Source: Demequinaceae bacterium
Lineage (GTDB): Bacteria > Actinomycetota > Actinomycetes > Actinomycetales > Demequinaceae
Assembly: GCA_965250005.1 (NCBI GenBank)
Contig: OZ252279.1
Coordinates: 540,001-572,000 of the forward strand
Reading direction: 5' to 3'
Length of the DNA stretch: 32,000 bases
In this document: piece after piece, positions 3,983-17,860 of the stretch
Layout: every line of letters begins with the position of its first letter
Position numbering within the stretch: the stretch's first letter is position 1
The notes under the pieces: model-generated
What the model was told of the DNA's origin: nothing
Database searches by the model: none
What the model saw: the letters and a program-made list of their open reading frames with translations, nothing else
Position numbers and translations under genes: made by a program

Positions 3983-5170
3983 CTACTTCAAGTTCTCCGG
4001 AATCGCGGACTGGTAGGACTCAATGTTGCGCTTGACCTCGGTTACTGAGTCGCCGCCGAACTTTTCGAGCACCGCGTCCGCAAGGGTGAGCGCGACCATC
4101 GCCTGCGCGACCACCGCCGCCGGTGGCACCGCGCACACGTCGCTGCGTTGATGGTTGGCCTTCGCCGCCTTTCCTGTGGACGTATCAATGGTGTCGAGAG
4201 CGTTCGGAACAGTGCTGATGGGCTTCATCGCAGCGCGAACGCGTAGTGGGGTGCCGTTGCTCATGCCGCCCTCCACTCCTCCGGCGCGGTTTGATCGCCG
4301 CGCAACTCCGCCGCCGGCTGCATACTCGATCTCGTCGTGAGCAGCAGAACCCCGGCGCGCTGCAGTCCGGAAGCCATCACCAAACTCGACGCCCTTGATG
4401 GCCTGGATCCCCATCAGTGCGCCAGCAAGCCGCGCGTCCAGCCTGCGGTCCCAGTGGACATGGCTGCCGAGACCCACGGGAAGGCCATGGGCGACAACCT
4501 CAACTACGCCGCCCAGGGTGTCCCCGTCCTTCTGGCACTGGTCGATTTCGGCAACCATCGCAGTGGAGGTTTCCGCGTGGAAGCAGCGCACCATGTCCGC
4601 GTCGAGCGCTGCGGTGTCGGAGAACTCGGGTACCGGCGCGTTTTCGGGAACAGAGATCGTGCCGAGCGCGACGACGTGGGACACCAGCTCGATACCCGCC
4701 GCCTGCGAGAGGAACGCCTCAGCGACGGTACCGAGCGCCACGCGAGCAGCGGTCTCCCGCGCCGACGCGCGCTCGAGGATCGGCCGCGCGTCATCGAAGC
4801 CGTACTTGGTCATCCCCACAAGGTCAGCGTGCCCCGGGCGCGGGCGGGTGAGCGCGGCTGCTCGCGCGCCCTTCATTTCCGCGGCATCCACCGGGTCAAC
4901 GGACATGACGGTTTCCCACTTGGGCCACTCGGTGTTTCCCACCTCGATGGCGACGGGGCCGCCTTGCGTCACTCCGTGCCGGACCCCGCTCAACACACGG
5001 ACGGCGTCCTTCTCAAATGCCATGCGTGCGCCGCGCCCGTAACCGAGCCTGCGACGCGCGAGCGCGTCCTGAATGTTGGTCGTCGTCACCTCGACGCCAG
5101 CAGGCAGCCCCTCCAGGGTGCCTACCAGCGCGGGGCCGTGCGATTCTCCAGCGGTGAGCCATCTGAGCAT
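3983..5170 (-). CDS. aroC: chorismate synthase
   Basis: 395-aa [28 protein letters not shown] and RPRPGHADL are chorismate synthase signatures. Confidence 0.95.
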
Positions 5171-5230
5171 GCGGTTATTCTTTCACGAGAGCGCGCACAC
5201 AACCAACGGCTCGCCCACGCTGCGTACGGA

Positions 5231-6010
5231 CTACGAGTTGCCAATCGGAATGAAGAAGTTGCGGTCGTTGGGTTCCGGCTCGGGCTCGGGCGAAGCGCTC
5301 GGATCCGGGCTGGGCTCGGGCGACGGACTCACCGTCGGCTCTGGTTCCGGCCGCACCTGGATTTCCGGGTTTCCATAGTCAAGAGTGAAGAAGAACCCGC
5401 TCACCACAAGCCGCAAATCACCGGCGTCAAGAGAGACACCGAGGTCTTCCACGGACTCCGTGACCGCCGTGACCGCGAATGCCGTAACAAGGAAGTACTG
5501 ATGATCTCCCAGCTGCAGCGAGTTCATGAGTCCCAGAATCTGCTCTCGCGTGCCAGCGGTGGTGAGGTTGACCTGAGTGGCAATGACGCCCGTGAACGCG
5601 AGGCCGTCAACTTGTGAGACCAGACCCACCTCTGCCGCTGGAATGGCGAGCGAGATTCGGGGAGTGACGGTTTGAATGCTCCCAATCTCTTCAGCGAAGA
5701 TCACCAGGTCATTTTCCTCAAACAACTCGAATAGCAAGCGGCGAAGTTCCGGGATTTCGCGCTCGGCGGGAAGGTCATCTCGAATTTCGTAGATTTCTTC
5801 GCGGTACTGCGGAATCTGTTCAGCGTCTGCGATTCGTTTGGCGAGGCTCAACTCGAGTTGGAAATTGGAGTCCTCCTGTGCAATGCGCGCCTCCTCGGCG
5901 TCTGCCGCGCGCGCGAACCTCGGGCCGATGCCCAGCATCCACGTGACGAGGGCCAGAATCACCGCGAGAGCAATAACTCCTCCGACTAGCACACCGTTTG
6001 AACCTCTCAT
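5231..6010 (-). CDS. pilO: type IV pilus alignment-complex protein, PilO-like, with Pro/Glu/Ser-rich C-terminal tail
   Basis: 259-aa ORF. Short cytoplasmic N-terminus, one TM helix (VLVGGVIALAVILALVTWML), a charged coiled-coil-like stretch, then a globular region. ATGA overlap with the upstream pilN-like gene and the pilM-pilN-pilO order support the call. Assignment rests on architecture and context rather than strict motifs. Confidence 0.7.
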   Translation of the reverse strand: MRGSNGVLVGGVIALAVILALVTWMLGIGPRFARAADAEEARIAQEDSNFQLELSLAKRIADAEQIPQYREEIYEIRDDLPAEREIPELRRLLFELFEENDLVIFAEEIGSIQTVTPRISLAIPAAEVGLVSQVDGLAFTGVIATQVNLTTAGTREQILGLMNSLQLGDHQYFLVTAFAVTAVTESVEDLGVSLDAGDLRLVVSGFFFTLDYGNPEIQVRPEPEPTVSPSPEPSPDPSASPEPEPEPNDRNFFIPIGNS

Positions 6011-6984
6011 GCCGATGCCTCCTCGTTGGCGCTAGGGCTTGGTGAGGGCTCGGGGGCCACTCCGCCGCCAGCAAGCGCCGCAACAGCCTCGGCTGCCTTC
6101 GCCTCGGTAAACTGGATCAATGCGTCTTCAGCGTCTTGAAGAGCCTCTGCGGCGGCTGCGAGAACTGTCTCCGCTACCGCGAGCGTGGCCTGCGCCTCCG
6201 CTACGCCTTGATCTGCCTCGATCGCGGCTGTCAGAATCGCAGCCGCGGTTGCCACAGATACCGTCGCAAGTTCGACCTCTTCGGAGGCCTCCACAATAGC
6301 CTCACGGTAGATTTCGCGCTCGTTCCACGCGTCGCTAAACCGACCGGACAGTGCGACAGCGGTAATGCGGACAGACCCGCTGAACGTGTAATACTCGTCT
6401 TCCTCTACCTGGCGAGCCGCGCCAGGGATTGTCGTTCGGGCCAAGCCTGGTACTGAATTGAGCGCCTCTTCAAGGTCAGCAATGTTTGGGTATTCCAGGC
6501 TGCGGCCGCTGAAAGACAGGACGCCAATATCGGGGGCCGAGAATGGCCCCGCTTCTTGGCCCGCAACCACAAACGGCGTCGTTGGCAACCAGGTCAAGCC
6601 CTGGAGACTCACCGATTCGGGCATCGCGCGCGTAAGCCCGGTGATCAAATCGGACATGAGAATCTCTGTTCCGCCAAGGTAGAGTCGTGCGCTCTTCGCA
6701 TTCAGGAGCTCGGCCTGAATCACGGGGACGTGGTCGTACAACGCGATCTCGTCGTTGAGGGCCTGCGTCTTCGCATTTTCGAGTGCGAGCCTATCTTCCG
6801 CGGATCTCGCCTGCAGTTCGGTAAATCCAACCAACGCCACCAGCAACACAATGAACATTACGAACGCAACGATAATCAGTGCGCGACTGCGTCCCTTCGC
6901 ACGCCTGCTCTCGACCTCTGGCGGGATGAGGTTGACCTGTGGCGCAGCAGGAGCCTTGACGGAATCTGGGACTGTAGTGGTCAT
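6007..6984 (-). CDS. pilN: type IV pilus alignment-complex protein, PilN-like, with long Ala/Glu-rich C-terminal extension
   Basis: 325-aa ORF. N-terminal VNLIPPE matches the PilM-binding INLLP-type motif of PilN and is followed by one TM helix (ALIIVAFVMFIVLLVALVGF). ATGA overlap with the pilM stop. Confidence 0.75.
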   Translation of the reverse strand: MTTTVPDSVKAPAAPQVNLIPPEVESRRAKGRSRALIIVAFVMFIVLLVALVGFTELQARSAEDRLALENAKTQALNDEIALYDHVPVIQAELLNAKSARLYLGGTEILMSDLITGLTRAMPESVSLQGLTWLPTTPFVVAGQEAGPFSAPDIGVLSFSGRSLEYPNIADLEEALNSVPGLARTTIPGAARQVEEDEYYTFSGSVRITAVALSGRFSDAWNEREIYREAIVEASEEVELATVSVATAAAILTAAIEADQGVAEAQATLAVAETVLAAAAEALQDAEDALIQFTEAKAAEAVAALAGGGVAPEPSPSPSANEEASA

Positions 6985-8045
6985 GCGCCAACCTCCCCAA
7001 AAGCGAGTCCTATACAGATCGGTACGAGGGACGCACGTCCGTCGGCCAGGTCGCTGCGTACGCGACCGGAGACCTTCACCCGCGCCAGCCCGTCGCCAAA
7101 ACTTACGGGTAGACGGCTCGCGCTCGCAAGATACTGGCCCAACCCAGGAAGATGAGCGCCACCACCGGTCAGTACCACGTGCTGGATCGCGCCGCCCGGG
7201 TTGTTCCCTGCGTAGTAAACGAACGTATTGCGGATCGCCTCAACGAGGGTCCGAGAAGTCGTGGTGAGCGCCTCGGCGCCAAGCTTGTATTCCTCTGCGA
7301 CGGCAAAACCGATGCCGATTTCACGCTTGAGCTGTTCGGCATCCTGCGTGGAGACCTGCAATGCGCTTGCGACCGCATCGGTCGCGTCCTGGCCTCCGGA
7401 CGGAAGGGTGCGAACGAACCGCGGTGCACCGTCGGAGACCACAAGCACGTTGGTCGTGCGCGCGCCTATGTCAACGAAAGCGACGGTCTTTCCGCCCCAG
7501 TCGCCCGTTGCTTGCGCGCGGTATAGCGCAAATGCGTTTAGGTCGACCATCGTGGGCCGGAGTCCAGCAGACTCGATCGCGAGGACGTGCGTCGCAACTG
7601 TTGCTTTTGGTGCGGCGACAATAATGCCGCGCAGCGCGCGACCACCGGTCTCCGCATCGACCTCGGCCGTTGGGAAAAAGTCGAGGAGCGCCTCGTCCGT
7701 CGACATGGGGAGCATTTCCCCTACTTGAAACGGCAGCGACTGTCGGAGTTGCCCCATGGGCAACGACGGAATCTCGAGCTCGCGAACCACCACGCGCTGA
7801 CTGCCGACTCCTGAAATCACGTGTTTGCTGGAGAACTTGCCCTTGGTCCAAAGTCTTTTTAGAACGGACGCGACCGATTGGATTTCGTGAATCTCGCCGT
7901 CGCCAACGGCGCCTGCGGGGAGCGCCAACTCAGCGTACCTGACCAGCGTGGCTGATCCGGTCGCGGGCCCTCGGCCGGAGAATTCGACCTCGGCGGCGCG
8001 CACGTGCGTCGTGCCGATATCTAGGCCAACCTGACGTGTCGCCAC
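6981..8045 (-). CDS. pilM: type IV pilus assembly protein PilM (actin-like ATPase fold)
   Basis: 354-aa ORF. VGLDIGTTHVRAAEV and VDIGARTTNVLV are the phosphate-binding motifs of the actin/FtsA/PilM fold. GTG start with GAAGGGAG 5 nt upstream. Confidence 0.85.
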   Translation of the reverse strand: MATRQVGLDIGTTHVRAAEVEFSGRGPATGSATLVRYAELALPAGAVGDGEIHEIQSVASVLKRLWTKGKFSSKHVISGVGSQRVVVRELEIPSLPMGQLRQSLPFQVGEMLPMSTDEALLDFFPTAEVDAETGGRALRGIIVAAPKATVATHVLAIESAGLRPTMVDLNAFALYRAQATGDWGGKTVAFVDIGARTTNVLVVSDGAPRFVRTLPSGGQDATDAVASALQVSTQDAEQLKREIGIGFAVAEEYKLGAEALTTTSRTLVEAIRNTFVYYAGNNPGGAIQHVVLTGGGAHLPGLGQYLASASRLPVSFGDGLARVKVSGRVRSDLADGRASLVPICIGLAFGEVGA

Positions 8046-8109
8046 GGCGCTCCCTTCATAGATTCCGTCTCATCAGACTATCGGCAGTATCACAGGCTGT
8101 CCTTAGCAA

Positions 8110-8883
8110 TCAGGTGATGAGTTTGAGGTATATATCACCTATCGCGGGCCCCGCTAGGTAGCCTGTCCAGGCAGCCACAATCAGCGCGGGTCCATAAGGT
8201 ACCTGCGACTTGCGGCGAAGTCTGCCCAATAGGAGACCCACAATAGCGGCAACTCCGCCGATCATCGGGCCAAGGAATCCGCCTACGGCCAGTTCTGCAT
8301 AACCCAGGTAGCCCGCCGCCATTCCAAGCAAGCCTGCGGTCTTCACGTCGCCGAACCCCATGCCTTTGGGGTAGATCAGCCACGCGAGGCCGTAATAACC
8401 GCCCCATGCGGCAAATCCAATACCGGCGCGCCCAAGATCGCCCCACGCGCCCTGAACTGCAGCATGTGCGGCTAGCGTCACTCCGAGGATCCCGTAGCTC
8501 GGAAGCACCAGCGAATTCGGAAGCCGCTTGACGTCCAAGTCGATGAAGAGCAGCGCGACGGAGACGACAGCAAGGTAGGCAAAACCCAAAGCCAAGAGCG
8601 TTAGGCCCCACGCCAAGTAGACGGCGACGAAAAGCGCGGCTACCAGGATTTCCACGAGCGGGTAGCGGCCTGAAATGGGCTCACGACAGTGCCGGCACCT
8701 CCGGCGCAGCCACAGCCACGACAACACCGGGATATTGTCGTACCAATCGATATCGTGCGCGCACCTCGGGCAATGACTTGAGCCGTTGACCCAATCTTGT
8801 CCCTTTGGGACCCGCGCAATTAGTACGTTCGTAAACGAGCCAACGATCAACCCGACCGCGACTACACCAAGTGTTTCTATCAC
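8110..8883 (-). CDS. pilD: bifunctional prepilin peptidase / N-methyltransferase (peptidase A24)
   Basis: 257-aa polytopic ORF. Paired cysteine motifs CPRCAHDI and CRHCREPI match the methyltransferase Zn motif. Both A24 catalytic Asp regions are present (FIDLDVKRLPN and GMGFGDVKTAG), plus the C-terminal VPYGPALIVAAW. Confidence 0.9.
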   Translation of the reverse strand: MIETLGVVAVGLIVGSFTNVLIARVPKGQDWVNGSSHCPRCAHDIDWYDNIPVLSWLWLRRRCRHCREPISGRYPLVEILVAALFVAVYLAWGLTLLALGFAYLAVVSVALLFIDLDVKRLPNSLVLPSYGILGVTLAAHAAVQGAWGDLGRAGIGFAAWGGYYGLAWLIYPKGMGFGDVKTAGLLGMAAGYLGYAELAVGGFLGPMIGGVAAIVGLLLGRLRRKSQVPYGPALIVAAWTGYLAGPAIGDIYLKLIT

Positions 8884-8889
8884 TCGCGG

Positions 8890-10380
8890 CTAGAAATGCT
8901 CTTGCTTGAAGACAAGCTCTACCTCGGAACCCTCGGCGGCCTCGACCTCGCCAACGACTAGTACGTCGGTTGGCAATTCCGCGGGCGCATAGAAGAATTT
9001 CTGGTGTGCGGTGAGGTCTACTTCGCCGGCGTAAATCTGGCCGTAGGTGTAGGTGTTGTTCTTGAATTCAACCACCTTCGGCGTGTAGAGGAAGATCTCC
9101 GTCGGCGGCTCCACCGTCGAGTTAGCGCTGAAAACAAGGTTCCCGTTTGTCGAGTTGTCGGACGGCACGATCAGGTAAAGCGTGAACGCTTCGCCCGGAA
9201 CTGAACTGATGTTCAGGCGGTTCGAGCCGTGAAATGCCTCGACAAAGAGCACTGTGTCTGCCCGCAGAATGATCGAACCCTTGTTCTTGGTCTCAAGATC
9301 ACAGTGGCGCAGGTCGTACACCGCAGGCTTGGTCGTGGCGGGGATTGTGATGGTCTTGCTTCCGATCTGGCACTCGTCGCTCAGACCCGCATGGGCCTTG
9401 AACTCGGTGGCGCCAAAGTCGTCAAATTCTGGAGTCCAATCCGTTATGTCGTACTCAAGAGTCGGAAATGCGATCGGCAGGAGGTTGGGTATTCCCACAA
9501 CGTTTTCTTCAAAGGTTCCGCCGACCAGAAGTGAATTCGACGTGACCGTGCCACCGATGAGCACGTTACCGCCAACTCCGGTGTTCGGATGCTGCGGGAT
9601 CGCATTGCCCTGTCGAATGGTTACGTCGCCCTCGACGCTGTTGTACGAAAAGTTGTTCTTGCTCTTCCAGTCGTATTGCACCCAGAGATCACCCTTGATT
9701 ACACACCCGTGGTTGTCAAAGTCGGCACCGCCCTGAACGATGTACAAACTTCCACTGACGGATACACCATGCTTGCACGTCCAGTCGCCGTCGTTGACCC
9801 AAATGTCTCCGTTTTCTCCCACGACACTCGGCTCGAGGTCAAAGTTCGCGTTGACGTCAAGCCCCGCGCCCGAGAAGATCGCGGAACTTACCGACGTGCC
9901 CGTCGACTCACGCGGAGTGAGGACCACTTTGGCGCGTACAACGCGCTTGGGGTTCAGCCCGAAGAACTCTTCTTCCGGAGTCCCTGTTGCCGTCACCATG
10001 GCGCCATACGGCGTCCCCGCGATGGTGCCGCCCGCAGGGCAATCCAGCGCGTCTCCGCTTTGATCCGTATATTCGATCGTGACGTTGACGCGGACCGCGT
10101 TGTTTCCCGAGCCAATCGTCTTGTTGTTTGCAAGCGCCTCACAGGGGCTTGCTCCCTCCAACTCGAGCAGCGTGGCGTCAACAGCCGCTTCGGCGGCGTG
10201 TACCTCAGCTGTTCGCACACTGTCACGTCCGGCGTCTCGCGACACGATGATGGCTTGAGTCACGACGAGCGTTGCGAGGGATATGCCGATGAGCGCGACT
10301 GCAAGTGCAGCCACCATCGCCGATCCTCCATCACCCGAGTTTCGCAAGGATACATTGCGGTTCATAATTGCCTTTCTCAC
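8890..10380 (-). CDS. PilX-N/GspK-like minor-pilin-type protein with large C-terminal beta-helix-like domain (candidate pilus tip factor)
   Basis: 496-aa ORF. The N-terminus SGDGGSAMVAALAVALIGISLATLVV followed by AEVHAAEAAVDA resembles the PilX N-terminal domain: a hydrophobic helix, no Glu5, then an AAEAG-like motif. Repetitive G-x-[VIL] strands span about aa 165-305. GTGA overlap with the upstream gene. An ATG at 10365 with GAAAGG upstream is an alternative start. Confidence 0.6.
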   Translation of the reverse strand: MRKAIMNRNVSLRNSGDGGSAMVAALAVALIGISLATLVVTQAIIVSRDAGRDSVRTAEVHAAEAAVDATLLELEGASPCEALANNKTIGSGNNAVRVNVTIEYTDQSGDALDCPAGGTIAGTPYGAMVTATGTPEEEFFGLNPKRVVRAKVVLTPRESTGTSVSSAIFSGAGLDVNANFDLEPSVVGENGDIWVNDGDWTCKHGVSVSGSLYIVQGGADFDNHGCVIKGDLWVQYDWKSKNNFSYNSVEGDVTIRQGNAIPQHPNTGVGGNVLIGGTVTSNSLLVGGTFEENVVGIPNLLPIAFPTLEYDITDWTPEFDDFGATEFKAHAGLSDECQIGSKTITIPATTKPAVYDLRHCDLETKNKGSIILRADTVLFVEAFHGSNRLNISSVPGEAFTLYLIVPSDNSTNGNLVFSANSTVEPPTEIFLYTPKVVEFKNNTYTYGQIYAGEVDLTAHQKFFYAPAELPTDVLVVGEVEAAEGSEVELVFKQEHF

Positions 10381-11060
10381 ACAGGTGGGATAACACTGCA
10401 GTTTGAGTCGGAGTAGCCAAACACGGTGTTGCGACCGGTGACTACGGTGCTCACGACTACGGGCTTGGAGCGATCGTCCGCCAATGGATCGAGAATCCGC
10501 AGCGTCACGCGAATGCTCTGAGCGGATGTGCCGGAGTTCTGGTTCGCGTCAATCCAGAAAGGCGGCCACGTCTGCGGATCGGCGGCGTCAATTGTTCCAC
10601 TCACCGGCGCGGCCACCGAGTTCTGTGCGACAACGTACCAGTCGGCCACGTCGCCCCAACTCAGTTCGTAGTCTGGATCCCAGGTCCGGTACTCAAGGTT
10701 TCCAAATTCCGCCTCGTCCGGGATGTTGACGCGCCACTGGGCGCATTTGAGTTCGCCGCCCTCCTGGGTGTACAGGCGCATCGAGTAACCCGCCGATACG
10801 CCGCTTTCGGCGACACCGTCGGCCGCCGGATCCTTAATGAGGTTGCCTGATCGGACCTGCCGGTCTATCTGCGAAACGCCCAGCCGCGCCTGTTGCACGG
10901 CGCGCTCGCGCGCAAGGTTGTCGCTCGCCTGATAGGTGAGATTGATCAAGATTGTGAATACCATCGCGAGCAGCATCGAGAACAGTGTCATGACGACGAG
11001 CATCTCCATCAGGCTGAATCCAGAATCGCGCGCTGCGTGGCGCCTAGGCATCGGGAGCAC
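10377..11060 (-). CDS. minor pilin, PilW/GspJ-like (prepilin-type N-terminal cleavage/methylation domain)
   Basis: 227-aa ORF. Class III signal peptide ...HAARDSG|FSLMEMLVVMTLFSMLLAMVF with Glu at +5. Overlaps the upstream gene by 17 nt, or 8 nt if the ATG at 11051 is used. Confidence 0.75.
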   Translation of the reverse strand: MLPMPRRHAARDSGFSLMEMLVVMTLFSMLLAMVFTILINLTYQASDNLARERAVQQARLGVSQIDRQVRSGNLIKDPAADGVAESGVSAGYSMRLYTQEGGELKCAQWRVNIPDEAEFGNLEYRTWDPDYELSWGDVADWYVVAQNSVAAPVSGTIDAADPQTWPPFWIDANQNSGTSAQSIRVTLRILDPLADDRSKPVVVSTVVTGRNTVFGYSDSNCSVIPPV

Positions 11061-12906
11061 CCCGGTATCCGGCAGACGCCTGCGAGCCGGTCAGGGTCGC
11101 ACCCACGTTGATCTCGTATTCGTAGGTGCCGCCTGCACCATCATCGACGGTCACCTCGTATGTTGTCGAAACTGAAATCGCCCCGACGGAGGCCGATATT
11201 TTGCACAGGTCCGCCACGCACTCGGGATCGTCATCGGACAGGCCCGGCGGGATATCACCGGTAATTGTCACGGTCGTAGTCGCAATCACGTTGATATTGC
11301 CGCCGGGCGGCGTCCAAGTGAGGACCGGTATCTCGGGAGCCTCAATGACCCGATTCGTCGAAACGTTGATCGGGACTTCCACGTAGTCGGCAATGTCATC
11401 GTCCCAAAACCACAAGGTCGCTGACCGGGTGATCACGGGAGCAGTTGTCTTCTGGTCGTGGCCCCGCTCGACCTTGACCTCGTCTTGGTATGCGGTGATA
11501 TACACGATGCCGTTCCACGCGGCGTCATTGTTTCCGGAGTCTTTCCATACTCGGGCTTCCGGGAACGAGAAGTGAATGGACGCGCTTGATGCTGACGCCC
11601 CCGCAGCAACACATCCCTCGTTGGTCACCGTCGTGCAGGCGATCGTTCCGGGATTCGCGGAATCGGAAAAACGGGCGACCCAGGACTCTTTGGCGGTTCC
11701 GGTAGCGCTCCCTCTGTACCAGGGCGACATCCCGAATCTCTCCGCTGCGCTGTTGGTGTAGTCGAGCCGGACTCTCGACTTGGTTAGTCCGCCAATATTC
11801 GCCTGCGCGCACGGGGTTCCCGCTGCCACACCAACGGCGCAGGCCTCGCTGACTGACGAATGCGTGCTCCCAGCCCCAAACTGGTCGCTATCGAAATAGG
11901 CGAAGAATTCAGCATCCACCGCTGACGTGATCGTATTGGGCGACGCCCCTGAGTGCGCGCGGACGTCTGTGTTGTCTATACCCGGATTGCCGACCGAAAC
12001 GGTATCGTCCGAAGCCTCGGTCACGATGAGTTCAAACCCGCGTGGGTAAGTGCCGGAGTAATCCGAGCCGTCCGCCTTGTGCACGCGCTCGCCGCCGTAC
12101 GCCAAGGATGCGTCGACGTTCGTTACCTGCTGGCTGGTTAGGCTCGCGCGCGTTTGCGAAGTCGTAATCCCAAGCGTGAACATCTCTCGACCGGGCATGA
12201 TTGATACGGCCGCACCACCTGCCAAATCGGGAAGATTGGCGGTCGCGCTGAACGAGAGCGACGCACTCGACGACGACGCGCTAAATCTGGCTTGACATGA
12301 ACTCAGGAAAGGCTGCGACTCGAGGCTCGCCAGGTCACTGCAACCCGCAGACGGCGCGTACGCGGTTGTCCGGTAGACGTCAGTTCGCATCTCACCCGAG
12401 CTGTTGTCTTCCCACGTCACAACAATCGTCATGCCCAACGTTTCGGCCCCGCCAAGCCCCTCTGTCACATATGCGCGTGTGGTGTAAACGGCGCCCGTTG
12501 CCTCAGGTGAAATATTGACAGTCTTGTTCGAGCCCGTCGAGTCGAAGAGAGGGGGCCACGCGTCGAGTCGGTTCTGTGCACCTTCGGTGCCAGTAGCGTT
12601 CGCAACTACGATCTCTTCGGCCACTCCTTCAATCGTCAAGGTGGTCCCAGACACGTAGGGGTCACCGCCAGACGCTGATTTGAAGTCGGCGTCCAAGCCT
12701 CGCGAAAGCACCGCGTACGGCATCGCGCGCATCTGCTCGATCGCGCCGTTCGCGTAGGCGGTAGCTTGCTGCCGGTGTCCTGCCTCCACGACCGAAACCA
12801 GTGCGGATGTTTGCACGGCCATGAGCACAAGGAGGACGCCCGTGATAATCATCATGGCGACAACAAGTTCAGCCATCGTGAATCCTTCTTCACGAGAGTT
12901 CAACAT
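11044..12906 (-). CDS. large modular minor pilin, PilV/GspI-like N-terminus plus about 400-aa extra module
   Basis: The ORF track gives 11044..13020 (658 aa). The prepilin motif MLNSREEG|FTMAELVVAMMIITGVLLVL starts at the ATG at 12906 (AAGG 7 nt upstream). The 38 upstream codons run through the pilA-distal hairpin, so the start was re-called, giving 620 aa. AGHRQQATAYANGAIEQMRAMPY resembles PilV. Confidence 0.75.
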   Translation of the reverse strand: MLNSREEGFTMAELVVAMMIITGVLLVLMAVQTSALVSVVEAGHRQQATAYANGAIEQMRAMPYAVLSRGLDADFKSASGGDPYVSGTTLTIEGVAEEIVVANATGTEGAQNRLDAWPPLFDSTGSNKTVNISPEATGAVYTTRAYVTEGLGGAETLGMTIVVTWEDNSSGEMRTDVYRTTAYAPSAGCSDLASLESQPFLSSCQARFSASSSSASLSFSATANLPDLAGGAAVSIMPGREMFTLGITTSQTRASLTSQQVTNVDASLAYGGERVHKADGSDYSGTYPRGFELIVTEASDDTVSVGNPGIDNTDVRAHSGASPNTITSAVDAEFFAYFDSDQFGAGSTHSSVSEACAVGVAAGTPCAQANIGGLTKSRVRLDYTNSAAERFGMSPWYRGSATGTAKESWVARFSDSANPGTIACTTVTNEGCVAAGASASSASIHFSFPEARVWKDSGNNDAAWNGIVYITAYQDEVKVERGHDQKTTAPVITRSATLWFWDDDIADYVEVPINVSTNRVIEAPEIPVLTWTPPGGNINVIATTTVTITGDIPPGLSDDDPECVADLCKISASVGAISVSTTYEVTVDDGAGGTYEYEINVGATLTGSQASAGYRGAPDA

Positions 12907-12986
12907 ACGTCGCCTTAGGTCACGCACTGCTCTTCTCCCTCCATGTGCCAAATCCCAGATCTCGCAGGATTCCTCAACACGCCTCC

Positions 12987-13016
12987 GGGTGGGGGCCTCA
13001 AGAGAGGTCCCCACCC
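12987..13016 (-). terminator. GC-rich stem-loop after pilA (candidate attenuator/terminator or mRNA stabiliser)
   Basis: mRNA sense GGGUGGGGA-CCUC-UCUU-GAGG-C-CCCCACCC gives 8 + 4 bp. It is preceded by a second hairpin at 13017..13040 (GCAGCAUU...AAUGCUUGC). No U-tract follows. Confidence 0.45.
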
Positions 13017-13040
13017 GCAAGCATTATGTCGAAATGCTGC

Positions 13041-13460
13041 CTAGCAACTAGCGCCAACAGTGAGGCCGCTGGCTGCGGAGTACTCGACTCCGCCCACGGA
13101 CTTGTCGCCCTCAAGGTTGTAGACCCAGACACACCAGTCGCTGCTGGTGGTTCCGGAAACGCCTCCAAGCGCAACGTTGTCCGACTGGTTGCCGATGTTG
13201 GTTCCGGAGATGGAGTAGTTGCTACCGTCACCCGCAATAGCCGGCATCGACGTTCCGTCGACCCAGTACGTGGCAATTTCCTTGCCGAGGGTGGAGACGT
13301 CAGCCTTGGCAGCTGCATCTTCAGCCTTCTTGCGCTGGCTCAGGAAGAGCGGAATTGCAACAGCGGCAAGGATGCCGATGATAATCATAACGACGAGCAA
13401 CTCGATCAGGGTGAAACCCTGGTCCTTCTGCTCCATATTCTTACGGATTCGCGCGATCAT
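13041..13460 (-). CDS. pilA: major type IV pilin (type IVa-like)
   Basis: 139-aa ORF. MIARIRKNMEQKDQG|FTLIELLVVMIIIGILAAVAIPLF is the canonical class III signal peptide with Glu5. AAGGAG lies 4 nt upstream of the ATG at 13460. Two Cys (DWC...GASC-end) are placed like a D-region disulfide. First pilin gene after pilC. Confidence 0.9.
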   Translation of the reverse strand: MIARIRKNMEQKDQGFTLIELLVVMIIIGILAAVAIPLFLSQRKKAEDAAAKADVSTLGKEIATYWVDGTSMPAIAGDGSNYSISGTNIGNQSDNVALGGVSGTTSSDWCVWVYNLEGDKSVGGVEYSAASGLTVGASC

Positions 13461-13580
13461 GGCGCTCCTTCTTTTTTGTTTTCTTCTCTATGGTTTATCC
13501 GCGAGGGAACCCCCGCGGTTTCTACAACCGGCAGTCCGCCCAACTCGAAGGCCGTACGTTTCTTCCGGTCGAAGCTCTAT

Positions 13581-14810
13581 TTAGTTGATCAACTCGAAGA
13601 TGCCGAAGATCGGCATATACAGGCCGATGATCATGGTGCCGATGATGCTGCCCAATACACCAATCATCAGTGGCTCGATCAGTGAGGTCAAGGCGTCTGT
13701 GGTGGATTCCACTTCCTGGTCGTAGAAGTCCGCGATCTTGTCAAGCATGGTGTCGAGCGCACCCGTGTCTTCACCCACCGAAATCATCTGAACCACCATG
13801 GCAGGGAAGACCGGGTGCTCCGCCAGCGGCCCGGCGAGGGTGTTTCCGGTGCGCACGGACTCCCGCACGTCGTTTGCCGCATGTTCGATTACGACGTTTC
13901 CGCTCGCCTCGCCCACGATGTCGAGCGCCTGCAGGATGGGAACGCCCGCGCGGATCATGGCCCCGAAGTTGCGAGTGAACCGCGAGATGGCGATTTTCTG
14001 AATGAGGCCGCCAAACACCGGAAGCTTGAGATACAACGGCTCGACCTTTTCGCGGAACGCCTTCTTGTTCTTGTTCTTGGTCCACAGCACGGACACGGCG
14101 AAACCTACGACGATCATGGGGATCGTGCCTACTTTTAAGAAACCAGAGATAGCAACGAGTGCCGCGGTAAGAGGTGGCAACTCGCCACCGAGAGTCGCGA
14201 ACATATTGGCGAACACGGGAACGATGAAAAGCAGCATGCCAATGACGGCAACGATCGCGATCACGAAAACCACGACAGGGTAGGCCATGGCCGACTTCAC
14301 CTTATTTCGCAGCTTCACTTCCGACTCAAAGTTTTCGGCAATGGACAACAGCACCGAGTCCAGGAATCCGCCAACTTCGCCGGCCCGAATCATGTTAATC
14401 ATGAGCGGAGGAAAGACTGCCGGGTGCCGGCCGATCGCTTGGGAGAGAGAGACGCCCGTCTCTACATCCGACCGCACGTCAAGAATGACCTTGCCAAGCG
14501 CGGCATTTTCCGTCTGCTCGGCAAGAATGTTCAGCGCGCGAATAATTGACAGGCCCGCCTGAATCATGGTCGCGAGTTGGCGCGAAAGGATCGAGATGTC
14601 CTTGAGGCCGATCTTGTCCGTGAGGCCGGGGATCTTGATTTCTCTCTTGAGTGCGCTCGCCCTAACGGCATCAATAGAGATGGGAGCGAGGCCCATGGAT
14701 CGCAGCTTGGACGACACCGCGGCCTCGTTGGGCGCCTCGATCTCGCCGTTCTGGATGCGCCCCTGAGTATCACGGTACGAATACTTGAAAGTCTGCGTCG
14801 CGGTCGCCAT
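13581..14810 (-). CDS. pilC: type IV pilus platform protein PilC (T2SS F family)
   Basis: 409-aa polytopic ORF with the duplicated T2SSF signature (GEVGGFLDSVL and GEDTGALDTML). Confidence 0.93.
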   Translation of the reverse strand: MATATQTFKYSYRDTQGRIQNGEIEAPNEAAVSSKLRSMGLAPISIDAVRASALKREIKIPGLTDKIGLKDISILSRQLATMIQAGLSIIRALNILAEQTENAALGKVILDVRSDVETGVSLSQAIGRHPAVFPPLMINMIRAGEVGGFLDSVLLSIAENFESEVKLRNKVKSAMAYPVVVFVIAIVAVIGMLLFIVPVFANMFATLGGELPPLTAALVAISGFLKVGTIPMIVVGFAVSVLWTKNKNKKAFREKVEPLYLKLPVFGGLIQKIAISRFTRNFGAMIRAGVPILQALDIVGEASGNVVIEHAANDVRESVRTGNTLAGPLAEHPVFPAMVVQMISVGEDTGALDTMLDKIADFYDQEVESTTDALTSLIEPLMIGVLGSIIGTMIIGLYMPIFGIFELIN

Positions 14811-14819
14811 GAGTTGTCC

Positions 14820-16124
14820 CTATACCCCTTGGGTTCCGACGGACTGGCCCTGCTTCTGGCCGCCCTCACGTCCGGCGAGTCGGTTAAACTCCTCGACGTG
14901 GTGGCACTTCTCTAGCCCGGTCTCGTACGAAATCTTGTTGATGCGCACCAACTCAGCCAAGTGCTGGTCCATGGTGTGCATACCGAGTGACGACCCTGCC
15001 TGCATCGCGGAGTAAATCTGGTGCGTCTTGCCCTCGCGAACCAGGTTACGAATAGCAGACGTCGCGATCAGCACTTCTGTGGCGACAGCGCGGCCGGGTC
15101 CGTCGCTGCGCTTGCACAATGTCTGACAGACAACCCCCTGAAGCGCGGTCGCTAACTGTGTCCTAATCTGACCCTGCTGGTGCGACGGGAATACATCGAT
15201 CACGCGGTCGATCGTCTGCGCCGCGTCCTGGGTGTGAAGGGTCGCGAATACCAGGTGGCCGGTCTCCGCAGCTGTCAGCGCCACAGAAACTGTTTCGAGG
15301 TCGCGCATCTCGCCCACCAAGATAATATCCGGGTCCTGACGCAACACGTGCTTCAGGGCGTTTCCAAAAGAGTGTGTGTCGGCGCCAACCTCGCGCTGGT
15401 TAACAAGCGACTTCTTGTGGCGGTGGAGGAACTCGATGGGATCCTCAACGGTCATGATGTGATCACTGCGGCTGCGGTTCGCAAGATCAATAATCGACGC
15501 CAGCGTCGTGGATTTGCCGGATCCCGTCGGTCCGGTAACAAGCACCAACCCGCGCGGAATCCCCGCGAAGTTTCCCACGACTGGAGGGATACCGAGGGAC
15601 TCGAGAGGCTGAATCTCGTAAGGGATGATGCGGAAAGCCGCACCCAGCGAATCGCGCTGCTGGTAGAGGTTCACGCGAAAACGCGCCTCCCCCACTAGCG
15701 CGTACGCGAAGTCAAGTTCGAGTTCCGCCTCAAACTGCTCTCGCTGCTTTTGGGAAAGGATGCTGTACATCACTCGCTGGACGGCGTCGGGTTTCAGGAG
15801 CGCAAACCCCTCGAGTTGCGTAAGCGCGCCGTCGACACGCGCCATAGGCGGTGCGCCTACCGTGATGTGAAGGTCGGATCCACCCATCGCAAGCATCTTG
15901 CGAAGCGCGCCAGAAAGGTCCAGGTCGTCCGGCTGAGAATCTCTGCTGAGTCCAACACGCCCGGCCCCAGCTGAAGCCGCCTGTGCCGCCTGCGGAGCGG
16001 GCGCCGATCCGGGTGCTGGAGGAACAGTTGCCGTCGAGGCGCCAGCTGCCGGACTTGCTTGCGCAGCGCGCGCCTGGGAGCGAGTCACTTGGCCCTGTGC
16101 CAACTCATGCGGGCTCTGCGTCAC
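14820..16124 (-). CDS. pilT: type IV pilus retraction ATPase PilT with about 70-aa Ala/Pro/Gln-rich N-terminal extension
   Basis: 434-aa ORF. Walker A GPTGSGKSTT, Walker B ILVGEMRD, His box LVFATLHT and the PilT-specific AIRNLVREGK are all present. GTG start at 16124 with GGGAG 7 nt upstream. Confidence 0.92.
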   Translation of the reverse strand: MTQSPHELAQGQVTRSQARAAQASPAAGASTATVPPAPGSAPAPQAAQAASAGAGRVGLSRDSQPDDLDLSGALRKMLAMGGSDLHITVGAPPMARVDGALTQLEGFALLKPDAVQRVMYSILSQKQREQFEAELELDFAYALVGEARFRVNLYQQRDSLGAAFRIIPYEIQPLESLGIPPVVGNFAGIPRGLVLVTGPTGSGKSTTLASIIDLANRSRSDHIMTVEDPIEFLHRHKKSLVNQREVGADTHSFGNALKHVLRQDPDIILVGEMRDLETVSVALTAAETGHLVFATLHTQDAAQTIDRVIDVFPSHQQGQIRTQLATALQGVVCQTLCKRSDGPGRAVATEVLIATSAIRNLVREGKTHQIYSAMQAGSSLGMHTMDQHLAELVRINKISYETGLEKCHHVEEFNRLAGREGGQKQGQSVGTQGV

Positions 16125-16201
16125 AACTTTTCTCCCGGTCTTGCGTCGAGTTGATAGCGACTGCTGTCTTATCGACCATTTTGGACAATTCTTGAGCGGC
16201 G

Positions 16202-17860
16202 CTACTTAGCGACGCGGAACAACTCCTCGATTGACGTCAGGCCCTCCTGAACCTTGGTCCAACCGTCCTGGAGCAGCGTCTGCATTCCCTGCTCTTTTGC
16301 GACCTTCGCGATCTCGGCAGACGAAGCGCGCGCCACCGCGAGCCTCTCGATATCCTCGGTGACTGTCATAACTTCGTGCAGCGCAAGCCTGCCGCGGTAG
16401 CCCGTGTTGGAGCAGGCGCTGCAGCCCTCTGGGCGAAATAGGATAGGCACCTTGTTTCCGGTCCACCCGAATCGTTCCTTGAGCGCGTCGGCCTCGGGTT
16501 CGTACTCACTTTTGCACTTAGTACACAGCAAGCGGGCAAGTCGCTGGGCGACGACACAGTCAATTGCGGAGCCAACGAGGAACGGTTCGATGTCCATCTC
16601 GATTAGTCGCGTGATAGCGCTCGGCGCATCGTTGGTGTGAAGAGTCGACAGCACGAGGTGTCCGGTGAGTGCCGCTTCAATCGCAATCTGCGCGGTCTCG
16701 TGGTCGCGGATCTCACCGACGAGCACAACGTCGGGGTCCGACCGCAAGATCGAGCGTAGGGCGCTCGCAAAAGTGAGCCCGGCCTTCACGTTTACCTGCA
16801 CTTGATTGATATTGGGAATCCGGTACTCAACGGGATCCTCAACCGTGATCACGTTGATTTCGGGGCGCGCCACCTGATTGAGCGTTGCGTACAACGTGGT
16901 TGACTTTCCCGACCCCGTAGGTCCTGTCACCAGAATCATTCCGTACGGCTTTTGGAACGACTCCTGATAACGCTCGTAGTTTTCTGGCCGAATGCCCAGG
17001 TCTTCAAGGTCCATCGTTGCCGTGGTGTTGTCGAGGATGCGCATGACGATCTTCTCGCCCCACACGGTTGGCAGGGTGGCGACGCGGAGGTCAATCTTGC
17101 GTCCCTGGTGGTTGACGGAGAGTCGACCATCCTGGGGCCGGCGGCGTTCTGCGATATCCACGTCAGCCATGATTTTGAGGCGCGAGATCACTCCGTTCTG
17201 GATTGCCTTCGCGGCCCGCTGCATCTCGTGGAGCACGCCGTCAATGCGGTACCGGACGCGCATGTCCTTCTCGGCTGGCTCGATGTGAATATCCGAGGCT
17301 CGGTCCTGGATCGCCTGGGTAATGAGCAGGTTGACGAACCGGACGATTGGCGCATCGTCCTCGATGACGTCGCCCATGCCGTCTGCTTCGCCATCAGAAT
17401 TATCTTCGAGCGAGTCCTGGAGGTCGTCCAACTCGCTATCGGCACGACAGAACCGGTCGATTGCCGCGACCACGTCGTCGTGCGCGGCCACCACGGGGAT
17501 GACCTCACGGTTAGTGAGGGTGCGGAAATCATCTACGGCAACCACATTGCCTGGGTTGGACATGGCAATCCGAATGACGCCTTCGTCAATCCCGATCGGC
17601 AGCGCCGTGTGGCGCCGGCAAACCTGAGCGGGAACCAGGGCGACGGCGGCTTGGTCTACCGGATAGTCGGCGAGTTCGACGAACTCCATGCCTACCTGAC
17701 TCGCAAGAGCACGAACCAGCTGAGCTTCCGATATCAGCCCGAGCTCGACAAGCGTGCGCCCCAGAGACTGGCCTCGCTTCTGCTGCTCGTCGATGGCATC
17801 CATCAACTGCTCTTCAGACAGCGAACCGTCCTCAAGAAGGATGGAACCCAGTTGCTTCAC
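16202..17860 (-). CDS. pilB: type IV pilus extension ATPase PilB (GspE family)
   Basis: 552-aa ORF. N-terminal T2SSE_N/MshEN-like repeats, Walker A GPTGSGKSTT, VLVGEIRD, LVLSTLHTNDA, and the tetracysteine CTKC...CSAC typical of extension ATPases. GTG start with GAGGGAG upstream. Confidence 0.93.
   Translation of the reverse strand: MKQLGSILLEDGSLSEEQLMDAIDEQQKRGQSLGRTLVELGLISEAQLVRALASQVGMEFVELADYPVDQAAVALVPAQVCRRHTALPIGIDEGVIRIAMSNPGNVVAVDDFRTLTNREVIPVVAAHDDVVAAIDRFCRADSELDDLQDSLEDNSDGEADGMGDVIEDDAPIVRFVNLLITQAIQDRASDIHIEPAEKDMRVRYRIDGVLHEMQRAAKAIQNGVISRLKIMADVDIAERRRPQDGRLSVNHQGRKIDLRVATLPTVWGEKIVMRILDNTTATMDLEDLGIRPENYERYQESFQKPYGMILVTGPTGSGKSTTLYATLNQVARPEINVITVEDPVEYRIPNINQVQVNVKAGLTFASALRSILRSDPDVVLVGEIRDHETAQIAIEAALTGHLVLSTLHTNDAPSAITRLIEMDIEPFLVGSAIDCVVAQRLARLLCTKCKSEYEPEADALKERFGWTGNKVPILFRPEGCSACSNTGYRGRLALHEVMTVTEDIERLAVARASSAEIAKVAKEQGMQTLLQDGWTKVQEGLTSIEELFRVAK

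What the first reader, a model, noticed from the sequence alone, without database searches (positions are those of the whole stretch)
8890..10380. 496-aa PilX-N/GspK-like protein with a beta-helix-like repeat region: candidate tip adhesin standing in for PilY1
Seen: the N-terminus has a hydrophobic helix without Glu5 (GGSAMVAALAVALIGISLATLVV) followed by AEVHAAEAAVDA, which is the pattern of the PilX N-terminal domain and of GspK-type capping pseudopilins. Residues about 165-305 show short repeated strands such as GDIWVNDGDW, GVSVSGSLYIV, GCVIKGDLWV, GDVTIRQGNA, GGNVLIGGTVTS and LLVGGTFEENVVG. These are reminiscent of bactofilin or beta-helix repeats, and similar strands recur near the C-terminus. 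There are six cysteines. Inference: it may be a large cap subunit combining PilX/GspK priming with an adhesin-like beta-helix. No PilY1/PilC-type adhesin gene is present in the cluster.
Basis: partly seen in the sequence, partly recalled or inferred. Interest (0 to 1): 0.62.

Follow-up and report, generated by a model that had tools for sequence, protein, structure and literature searches.

The report
ComZ-like pilus cap pilin, Actinobacteria
This gene encodes the probable cap subunit of a retractable surface fibre (type IV pilus) in a Demequina-like actinobacterium: a small pilin anchor carrying a beta-solenoid head, a design already known from Thermus ComZ and cyanobacterial PilX, so it is a sound but recognisable new example.

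Summary
The ORF at 8890-10380 (-) is real. The likely start is ATG 10365, giving 491 aa.

It is the last of three minor-pilin genes in a pilB-T-C-A-(PilV-like)-(PilW-like)-THIS-pilD-M-N-O operon. That order recurs in Demequina, Cellulomonas and other Actinomycetes families.

The N-terminus is a GspK/PilX-type class III signal. Gly-1 is invariant and position +5 is never Glu. Some family members reach Pfam PilX_N.

Residues ~166-470 model as a beta-solenoid with a 19-21-residue turn. Its nearest structures are tapirin adhesins and ice-binding proteins (FfIBP), and FfIBP is also the closest relative of the ComZ solenoid.

The genome has no PilY1 homologue and no pilin outside this cluster.

Relatives with the same N-domain, where examined in pilus clusters, often carry Ricin-B lectin modules instead. 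This favours a ligand-binding head.

Tip location, priming and adhesion are inferred, not shown. A DNA-receptor role as in ComZ, or a pure cap role with the 620-aa neighbour as adhesin, remain open.

The PilY1-substitute idea was published for cyanobacterial PilX in 2026. This scan has met ComZ-like cap pilins in many other genomes. Verdict: new member of a known kind.

The parts
8890..10365 (-). Coding sequence of the cap-type minor pilin (491 aa from ATG 10365; the mechanical ORF runs to GTG 10380)
   Evidence: ORF list. Start codon candidates and alignment of homologue starts. Full-length homologues in 1510 representative clusters.
10371..10376 (-). Shine-Dalgarno-like GAAAGG, 5 nt before ATG 10365; it lies just after the stop of the upstream pilin gene (10377-10379)
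   Evidence: Sequence read.
10324..10365 (-). Class III (prepilin-type) leader, residues 6-19, MNRNVSLRNSGDGG, ending in the invariant Gly-1 (G19)
   Evidence: G19 is present in 141 of 141 aligned members and D/E17 in 137 of 146. Cleavage by PilD is inferred.
10153..10323 (-). Alpha-1 helix, residues 20-76: a hydrophobic N-half with Ala at +5 (no Glu5), then RDxxRT..AEAxxD, the PilX_N-like signature
   Evidence: AF2 helix 21-76. Position +5 is never Glu in 146 members. PilX_N (PF14341) is hit by 13 of 79 members, best E 3.7e-7.
9907..10122 (-). Four-stranded antiparallel sheet of the pilin-like domain (residues 87-158), with the conserved pair Cys80/Cys114
   Evidence: AF2 strands 87-89, 96-105, 126-135 and 146-158. 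hhalign to lectin-bearing relatives covers 11-197 with E 1.4e-25. The Foldseek match to pseudopilins is not significant.
9481..9885 (-). Regular beta-solenoid turns (residues 166-300), period 19-21 aa, with the conserved pair Cys202/Cys226
   Evidence: AF2. Motif periodicity. Profile match to FfIBP, E 1e-3, over 176-246. Bactofilin, pAdhesive_15 and DUF7305 hits in family members.
8971..9480 (-). Distal, less regular beta-rich part of the head (residues 301-470), with the conserved pair Cys337/Cys360
   Evidence: AF2 pLDDT is mostly 80-94 here. The Foldseek alignment to tapirin 4wa0 spans 435 columns.
8893..8970 (-). Low-confidence linker (residues 471-482), then the conserved C-terminal strand (483-496, ..EVELVFKQE..), read as the last strand returning to the pilin sheet
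   Evidence: AF2 strand 485-495 follows a linker with pLDDT below 50. K492 is kept in 116 and E494 in 139 of 146 members. The pairing with the pilin sheet is inferred because no coordinates were available.
10377..11060 (-). Upstream partner: 227-aa prepilin (N_methyl), in the PilW/GspJ position
   Evidence: Pfam and NCBIfam hits. Conserved adjacency in 14 + 7 loci.
11044..12906 (-). Second partner: ~620-aa modular prepilin with a PilV-like N-terminus (G|FTMAE), the rival adhesin candidate
   Evidence: TIGR02523 PilV, E 2.8e-8. Synteny. An earlier follow-up note exists.
8110..8883 (-). Prepilin peptidase PilD, starting 6 nt after the target's stop codon
   Evidence: Pfam A24_N_bact, E 1.2e-33, and Peptidase_A24.

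Best explanation
The gene encodes the GspK/PilX-class (no Glu5) minor pilin of a monoderm type IVa pilus. I infer four steps.

1. PilD cleaves the leader after Gly19.
2. The hydrophobic alpha-1 helix joins the two neighbouring minor pilins (PilV-like, ~620 aa; PilW-like, 227 aa) in the membrane, forming the complex that primes PilA polymerisation.
3. Without Glu5 and with a ~300-residue head, the protein can only sit at the very top of that complex, so it ends up as the cap of the fibre.
4. The head is an ice-binding-protein/tapirin-like triangular beta-solenoid stapled by conserved cysteine pairs. It is inserted after the fourth pilin strand, and a last strand returns to the pilin fold, as in Thermus ComZ and cyanobacterial PilX. 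It is the ligand-contacting surface, most likely for a polysaccharide or other surface ligand. It also supplies the bulk that PilY1 supplies in proteobacteria.

Shown here: gene, family, operon position, N-terminal signature, predicted fold, and absence of PilY1. Inferred: cleavage, complex formation, tip location and ligand binding.
For: Operon: pilB-pilT-pilC-pilA-MP658-MP227-target-pilD-pilM-pilN-pilO-aroC is kept in 14 Demequina/Cellulomonas/MAG loci. It is also kept in 7 of 8 loci from other Actinomycetes families.

N-terminus: Gly-1 is present in 141/141 members, position +5 is never Glu, and the RDR..AEAG.D signature is conserved. PilX_N is hit by 13/79 members. JGI/IMG names one member 'Tfp pilus assembly protein PilX'.

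Fold: the AF2 model has pLDDT 78.8 and pTM 0.65, with the order helix, 4 strands, solenoid, last strand. Top Foldseek hits are tapirin 4wa0 (E 4.8e-4, prob 1.0) and ice-binding proteins including FfIBP 4nu3/4nu2. The family profile hits the FfIBP sequence at E 1e-3. [quoted passage not shown]

Genome: there is no PilY1 (PF05567) in the complete genome. The only three N_methyl pilins are in this cluster.

Module swapping: the N-domain (columns 11-197) is homologous to that of actinomycete proteins at hhalign prob 99.7, E 1.4e-25. Of 27 such proteins sampled, 12 carry Ricin-B lectin domains instead of the solenoid. The five whose surroundings I fetched lie beside pilus or pilin genes, and one lies directly upstream of pilD.

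Rate: the target and MP658 are the fastest-evolving genes of the operon, at 29-38% identity against 72-81% for PilB. This fits exposed tip proteins.
Against: The protein itself does not reach any Pfam or NCBIfam model. The PilX_N link rests on more distant family members.

The isolated pilin domain has no significant structural match. Among the listed hits, the highest TM-scores go to the pseudopilin entries 5bw0_B (XcpV/XcpW complex, TM 0.45/0.60) and 9a1f_R (XcpGHIJK model, TM 0.44/0.47), at E about 1-1.6.

ComZ (6QVI) and GspK were not among the 50 Foldseek hits shown. No sequence similarity to ComZ was found.

TM-scores to tapirin and ice-binding proteins are low (0.2-0.44), so this is fold-class similarity only.

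The return of the last strand to the pilin sheet could not be checked without coordinates. Nothing here shows cleavage, tip location or binding. The 620-aa neighbour could be the real adhesin.
Confidence: 0.7

Rival explanations
1. Same cap pilin, but the solenoid is a DNA receptor, as in Thermus ComZ. On this reading the pilus is mainly a competence pilus that hands DNA to ComEC.
For: ComZ has the same architecture and binds DNA (PMC6561018). The genome encodes ComEC. The operon has the retraction ATPase PilT. This is the only pilin set in the genome.
Against: The mature protein is strongly acidic: pI 4.45, 60 D+E against 27 K+R. Relatives with the same N-domain, in pilus clusters where examined, carry carbohydrate-binding Ricin-B lectins. 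There is no sequence similarity to ComZ. ComEC is near-universal, so it says little.
Confidence: 0.15
2. The protein is only a structural primer and plug. The solenoid supplies bulk to cap the fibre, and the ligand-binding adhesin is the neighbouring ~620-aa modular pilin.
For: The 620-aa pilin carries a ~400-residue extra module and evolves as fast as the target, at 30-37% identity. The residues conserved in the solenoid are structural (Gly, Cys, Pro, aromatics), with no obvious conserved binding patch. For cyanobacterial PilX, the solenoid is proposed to take over the capping function of PilY1 (PMC13759059).
Against: The same paper also proposes an adhesin role for its PilX-EPS subfamily. 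Replacing the solenoid with lectin domains in relatives is hard to explain if the module were only bulk. The nearest structures are adhesins: tapirins, and the pAdhesive_15 family.
Confidence: 0.2
3. It is not a pilus subunit. It would be a membrane-anchored or secreted beta-helix enzyme (polysaccharide lyase-like), or an assembly factor, that merely shares the operon.
For: Weak Foldseek hits to PL6 and PL3 lyases, E 0.5-4. The protein fails all pilin HMMs on its own.
Against: Gly-1 is invariant, the leader and alpha-1 are PilX_N-like, and the gene holds a fixed position between the minor pilins and pilD. No conserved acidic or basic catalytic cluster is seen. Ice-binding-protein and tapirin hits outrank the lyases.
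Confidence: 0.05

Closest known systems
ComZ of Thermus thermophilus (PDB 6QVI; PMC6561018)
   Same: It has a GspK-like pilin domain lacking Glu5. A large triangular beta-solenoid, whose nearest structural relative is FfIBP 4NU2, is inserted before the last pilin strand. It is encoded next to small minor pilins and was argued to sit at the tip.
   Different: There is no detectable sequence similarity, and ComZ is not in the Foldseek hits shown. ComZ is from a diderm, serves competence, and binds DNA. The present protein is from a monoderm, is acidic, has three conserved Cys pairs, and has a shorter solenoid (~300 against ~380 residues).
Cyanobacterial PilX1/2/3 family (PLoS Genet 2026, PMC13759059)
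   Same: [quoted passage not shown] The genomes lack PilY1. The authors proposed the same 'solenoid replaces the PilY1 cap' idea.
   Different: The phylum and cell envelope differ. Homology to the cyanobacterial proteins was not tested here because no sequences were in hand. The actinobacterial family shares its N-domain with lectin-bearing variants.
GspK / XcpX and PilX (PF14341) cap pseudopilins and minor pilins
   Same: Gly-1 with a G|(V/S/I)A(L/M)V start, no Glu5, last gene of an I-J-K-type trio, and PilX_N hits in family members.
   Different: GspK carries an alpha-helical insert between strands 3 and 4, not a solenoid (PMC6561018). Proteobacterial PilX is small and works with PilY1. The target itself is below the PilX_N threshold.
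Tapirins of Caldicellulosiruptor (PDB 4WA0, 6N2C; bioRxiv 10.1101/359786)
   Same: This is the best Foldseek match. It is a beta-helix adhesin encoded beside a type IV pilus locus in a monoderm, and it binds cellulose.
   Different: I have no evidence that tapirins have a pilin N-domain (not checked). TM-scores are only 0.23-0.31, and the profile E-value is 0.04.
PilY1 / PilC tip adhesins
   Same: The proposed role is the same: a bulky tip-associated cap and adhesin that depends on the minor pilins.
   Different: PilY1 is a non-pilin beta-propeller protein. No PF05567 match exists anywhere in this genome.
Streptococcus sanguinis modular pilins PilB (vWA) and PilC (lectin) (bioRxiv 10.1101/2021.01.27.428410)
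   Same: They are monoderm type IV pilins that carry a grafted binding module.
   Different: Those are Glu5, N_methyl-type pilins with the module at the C-terminal end. Here the carrier is the non-Glu5 cap pilin, and the module is an ice-binding-protein-like solenoid.

Membership tests
GspK/PilX-class cap minor pilin (Pfam PilX_N, PF14341) | Match to the PilX_N model over its gathering score | tested here: inconclusive
   The target has no hit at E<=1. However, 13 of 79 full-length family members hit at E<=0.01 (best 3.7e-7), and one reaches the 25.5-bit cut-off.
GspK/PilX-class cap minor pilin (Pfam PilX_N, PF14341) | Class III signal with Gly at -1, followed by a hydrophobic helix lacking Glu5 | tested here: met
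   G19 is present in 141/141 members. Position +5 is A/V/T/I/M/S/L and never E.
GspK/PilX-class cap minor pilin (Pfam PilX_N, PF14341) | Encoded as the last gene of a minor-pilin set within a type IV filament locus | tested here: met
   The order PilV-like, PilW-like, target, pilD holds in 14 + 7 loci.
GspK/PilX-class cap minor pilin (Pfam PilX_N, PF14341) | Pilin alpha-beta fold | tested here: inconclusive
   AF2 gives a helix plus a 4-strand antiparallel sheet, pLDDT about 80. Foldseek has no significant hit; the highest TM-scores go to the pseudopilin entries 5bw0_B (XcpV/XcpW complex, TM 0.45/0.60) and 9a1f_R, at E about 1-1.6.
GspK/PilX-class cap minor pilin (Pfam PilX_N, PF14341) | Cleavage by the prepilin peptidase, tip location, and priming of assembly | not testable with these tools
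   This needs biochemistry, genetics or a multimer prediction.
ComZ / cyanobacterial PilX architecture (pilin fold with inserted beta-solenoid) | Triangular beta-solenoid of the ice-binding-protein type | tested here: met
   Foldseek hits 5uyt, 3wp9, 4nu3 and 4nu2, plus tapirin 4wa0. The profile hits FfIBP at E 1e-3. The turn period is 19-21 aa.
ComZ / cyanobacterial PilX architecture (pilin fold with inserted beta-solenoid) | Solenoid inserted between the penultimate and the last strand of the pilin sheet | tested here: inconclusive
   The order of elements fits: 4 strands, solenoid, linker, then conserved strand 485-495. Homology with lectin-bearing relatives stops at about residue 197. No coordinates were available to check the strand pairing.
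ComZ / cyanobacterial PilX architecture (pilin fold with inserted beta-solenoid) | Direct structural or sequence similarity to ComZ (6QVI) | tested here: not met
   ComZ is not among the 50 Foldseek hits shown of 81, and not in the profile search of PDB sequences at E<=10. The link is indirect, through FfIBP.
PilY1/PilC tip adhesin | C-terminal beta-propeller (PF05567) | tested here: not met
   There is no match in the whole genome at E<=1. The target models as a solenoid.
Bactofilin (PF04519) | Match over the gathering score; cytoplasmic polymer-forming protein | tested here: not met
   The target has no hit. 15/79 members have sub-threshold hits, best 24.7 bits (E 2.8e-5) against the 27.9-bit cut-off. 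The protein has an export leader and conserved Cys pairs.
Ice-binding protein (DUF3494-type) | Ice-binding face and long helix packed along the solenoid | not tested
   Only fold-class similarity was found. Only a short helix, 324-331, is modelled.

The most novel reading that the evidence does not exclude
In Actinomycetes the non-Glu5 cap pilin may be a modular adhesin platform. One conserved pilin scaffold would accept alternative heads at the same insertion point: an ice-binding-protein/tapirin-like solenoid here, and Ricin-B lectins in many relatives. The solenoid head would then bind insoluble polysaccharide, giving these saprophytes PilT-powered attachment to their substrate without any PilY1.
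Probability: 0.3. Interest if true: 0.55.

Novelty: new member of a known kind. Interest (0 to 1): 0.35.

Why it matters
Type IV pili of Actinobacteria are almost unstudied. How monoderms without PilY1 cap and aim their pili is an open, though already framed, question.

This gene gives a concrete candidate that is conserved across several families. It is a small, disulfide-stapled, ComZ-like cap pilin. Its lectin-bearing relatives suggest the head is the specificity module.

It also flags two gaps in databases. A family of at least 1500 representative clusters has no Pfam or NCBIfam model and is mostly called 'hypothetical'. The database gene call for this window's own protein (P0001) starts too late and removes the signal peptide.

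Tried and rejected
- Pfam and NCBIfam scans of the target gave nothing.
- phmmer of the target against PDB sequences gave only chance hits, Tad2 at E 0.66.
- The word-indexed homologue search found only 9 proteins and made the family look rare. The exhaustive profile search corrected this to 1510 clusters.
- The search for related loci with alignment A1 failed for lack of a conserved stretch. The single protein found no relatives. A tighter alignment then worked.
- The Pfam scan of the 146-sequence alignment exceeded the size limit, so I repeated it on 79 sequences.
- I folded the pilin domain alone to obtain a GspK/ComZ match. The model was good, but Foldseek was not significant.
- DUF7305 and pAdhesive_15 do not hit the own genome. 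No paper mentions DUF7305.
- Rejected: bactofilin membership, PilY1 homology, and a lyase function.

Full report
**The gene and its surroundings**

The minus strand of the window carries a compact type IVa pilus operon. Its genes are:
- pilB, 16202-17860
- pilT, 14820-16124
- pilC, 13581-14810
- pilA, 13041-13460
- a ~620-aa PilV-like prepilin, 11044-12906
- a 227-aa prepilin, 10377-11060
- the target, 8890-10380
- pilD, 8110-8883
- pilM, pilN and a pilO-like gene, followed by aroC

Every quoted peptide and the six cysteines are present.

The mechanical GTG start overlaps the upstream stop codon. However, an ATG at 10365 follows GAAAGG by 5 nt, and it is where homologues begin, so the protein is probably 491 aa. 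The database gene call (475 aa, from Met22) removes the conserved leader.

**Size and spread of the family**

No Pfam or NCBIfam model matches the target. The word-indexed search found only nine relatives, the one carrying a name being a 'hypothetical protein' of Demequina capsici.

An exhaustive profile search of 1.84 billion cluster representatives gave a very different picture. It found 1510 proteins at E<=1e-3 and 442 at E<=1e-30, mostly matched end to end. One member is labelled 'Tfp pilus assembly protein PilX' by JGI/IMG.

The family was found in 21 of 24 genomes of the window's own bacterial family. In a sample of 401 Actinomycetes genomes, 105 match at E<=1e-10. About 18 of these match over the full length; the rest match only the first ~150 residues.

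**Synteny**

In 14 loci from Demequina species, Cellulomonas sp. B6 and related MAGs, the order is identical: pilB-T-C-A, 620-aa pilin, 227-aa pilin, target, pilD-M-N-O, aroC. The same order holds in 7 of 8 loci taken from other Actinomycetes families. The eighth is an orphan paralogue.

The target and the 620-aa pilin are the most divergent genes of the operon, at 29-38% identity. PilB is 72-81% identical and PilA 55-69%.

**N-terminus**

Across 146 members the consensus is (R)(R)D(D/E)xG | (V/S/I)A(L/M)(V/I)xA. Gly19 is present in 141 of 141 sequences, and the +5 position is never Glu. A conserved ..RDR.R....AAEAG.D segment follows.

From my own knowledge, this is the pattern of GspK and PilX. 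Here it is supported by PilX_N (PF14341) hits in 13 of 79 members, best E 3.7e-7. The target itself stays below detection.

**Predicted fold**

AlphaFold2 on a 9-sequence alignment gave pLDDT 78.8 and pTM 0.65. The elements, in order, are:
- helix 21-76
- four strands, 87-158
- a run of 3-residue strands, 166-300
- longer strands up to 464
- a disordered linker, 471-482
- a final strand, 485-495, which carries the nearly invariant K492 and E494

The motif G[DNSG][VIL]x[VIL] recurs at 191, 210, 230, 251 and 271. This gives a 19-21-residue turn, with p about 2e-4 against shuffles, though the motif was chosen post hoc.

Foldseek against the PDB puts the tapirin C-terminal domain 4wa0 first (E 4.8e-4, prob 1.0). 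Ice-binding proteins follow (5uyt, 3wp9, 4nu3, 4nu2), along with tapirin 6n2c. TM-scores are low, 0.2-0.44.

Independently, the family profile hits the FfIBP sequence at E 1e-3 over positions 176-246, and 4wa0 at E 0.04. Family members also give sub-threshold hits to Bactofilin (15), DUF7305 (5) and pAdhesive_15, an 'ice-binding-like adhesive domain' (5).

'Bactofilin-like' is only a resemblance of repeats.

**Comparison with what is known**

The ComZ paper describes a GspK-like pilin domain without Glu5. A solenoid is inserted between its penultimate and last strands, and the closest structural relative of that solenoid is FfIBP 4NU2. The authors argue for a tip position and show DNA binding (PMC6561018).

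A 2026 paper reports the same design in all cyanobacterial PilX homologues. It proposes that the solenoid takes over the capping function of PilY1 (PMC13759059). The target has the same order of elements and the same structural neighbour.

I could not show direct similarity to ComZ. It is not in the 50 Foldseek hits displayed, and not in the profile search. I also could not inspect the coordinates to confirm that the last strand rejoins the sheet.

A separate model of residues 40-165 was good (pLDDT 79.8) but found no significant structural match. Among the listed hits, the highest TM-scores go to the pseudopilin entries 5bw0_B (XcpV/XcpW complex, 0.45/0.60) and 9a1f_R (XcpGHIJK model, 0.44/0.47), at E about 1-1.6.

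**Evidence bearing on function**

- The complete, single-contig genome has no PilY1-type protein.
- Its only three N_methyl prepilins are those of this cluster, so this trio plus PilA is the whole pilin repertoire.
- ComEC is present, so a DNA-uptake role is possible.
- The mature protein is very acidic, pI 4.45.

The most informative result concerns the actinomycete proteins that match only the N-domain. They are homologous over leader, helix and sheet (hhalign prob 99.7, E 1.4e-25, columns 11-197), and the homology ends where the head begins.

I fetched the surroundings of five of them, and all five lie beside pilus or pilin genes. In two the gene sits just upstream of pilD, the target's own position; in one of these it directly abuts pilD. 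Across all 27 sampled, 12 carry Ricin-B lectin domains, with E down to 1.8e-22.

A carbohydrate-binding module at the same point of the same scaffold argues that the head is a ligand-binding module rather than mere bulk. This is inference by analogy, not a test.

**Verdict**

The adhesin and PilY1-substitute function remains a reasonable but untested hypothesis. It already exists in print for another phylum.

Two rivals remain: a ComZ-like DNA receptor, and a pure cap with the 620-aa neighbour as adhesin.

Earlier notes of this scan report ComZ-like cap pilins in many other genomes and phyla, and a follow-up on the 620-aa neighbour. I reached the ComZ reading before consulting them (note).

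Noticed in passing
L032:839-2743 (G105), L028, L029, L049, L050, L052-L054, L058, L061, L063: Many Actinomycetes encode a protein with the same PilX-like N-domain but Ricin-B lectin domains in place of the solenoid (12 of 27 sampled). In G105 it lies directly upstream of pilD, in the target's position. I found no description of lectin-headed cap pilins in the papers I searched.
   Followed up: partly
window 10317-10380: The database protein for this gene (P0001, 475 aa) starts at Met22. It therefore lacks the conserved leader and the invariant Gly-1, which is a likely start-site misannotation.
   Followed up: yes
L043 (G396:C5:377000-396900): One genome has a second, full-length copy of the solenoid cap pilin with no other pilus gene within 20 kb. 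It is an orphan paralogue, perhaps an alternative head.
   Followed up: no
window 3983-17860; loci L012-L026, L040-L047: The whole pilus operon sits next to aroC in every family examined, so the placement in the shikimate gene neighbourhood is old and stable.
   Followed up: partly
window 8890-13460: The pilin genes have lower G+C (0.56-0.60) than the flanking housekeeping genes (0.62-0.67). The two large minor pilins are by far the fastest-evolving genes of the operon.
   Followed up: partly
Pfam DUF7305 (PF23981): This uncharacterised domain gives weak hits in 5 of 79 family members. In the control genomes it rings only in Thermus thermophilus and Bacteroides. It may correspond to the ComZ-type solenoid.
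   Followed up: no
window 8893-8934 and C-termini of L028-L034, L049-L067: Solenoid-type and lectin-type relatives both end with a short segment holding a Glu 3-9 residues from the end (..YKRE.., ..NTQETT.., ..YRELDR). This fits a shared last pilin strand after the variable head.
   Followed up: partly
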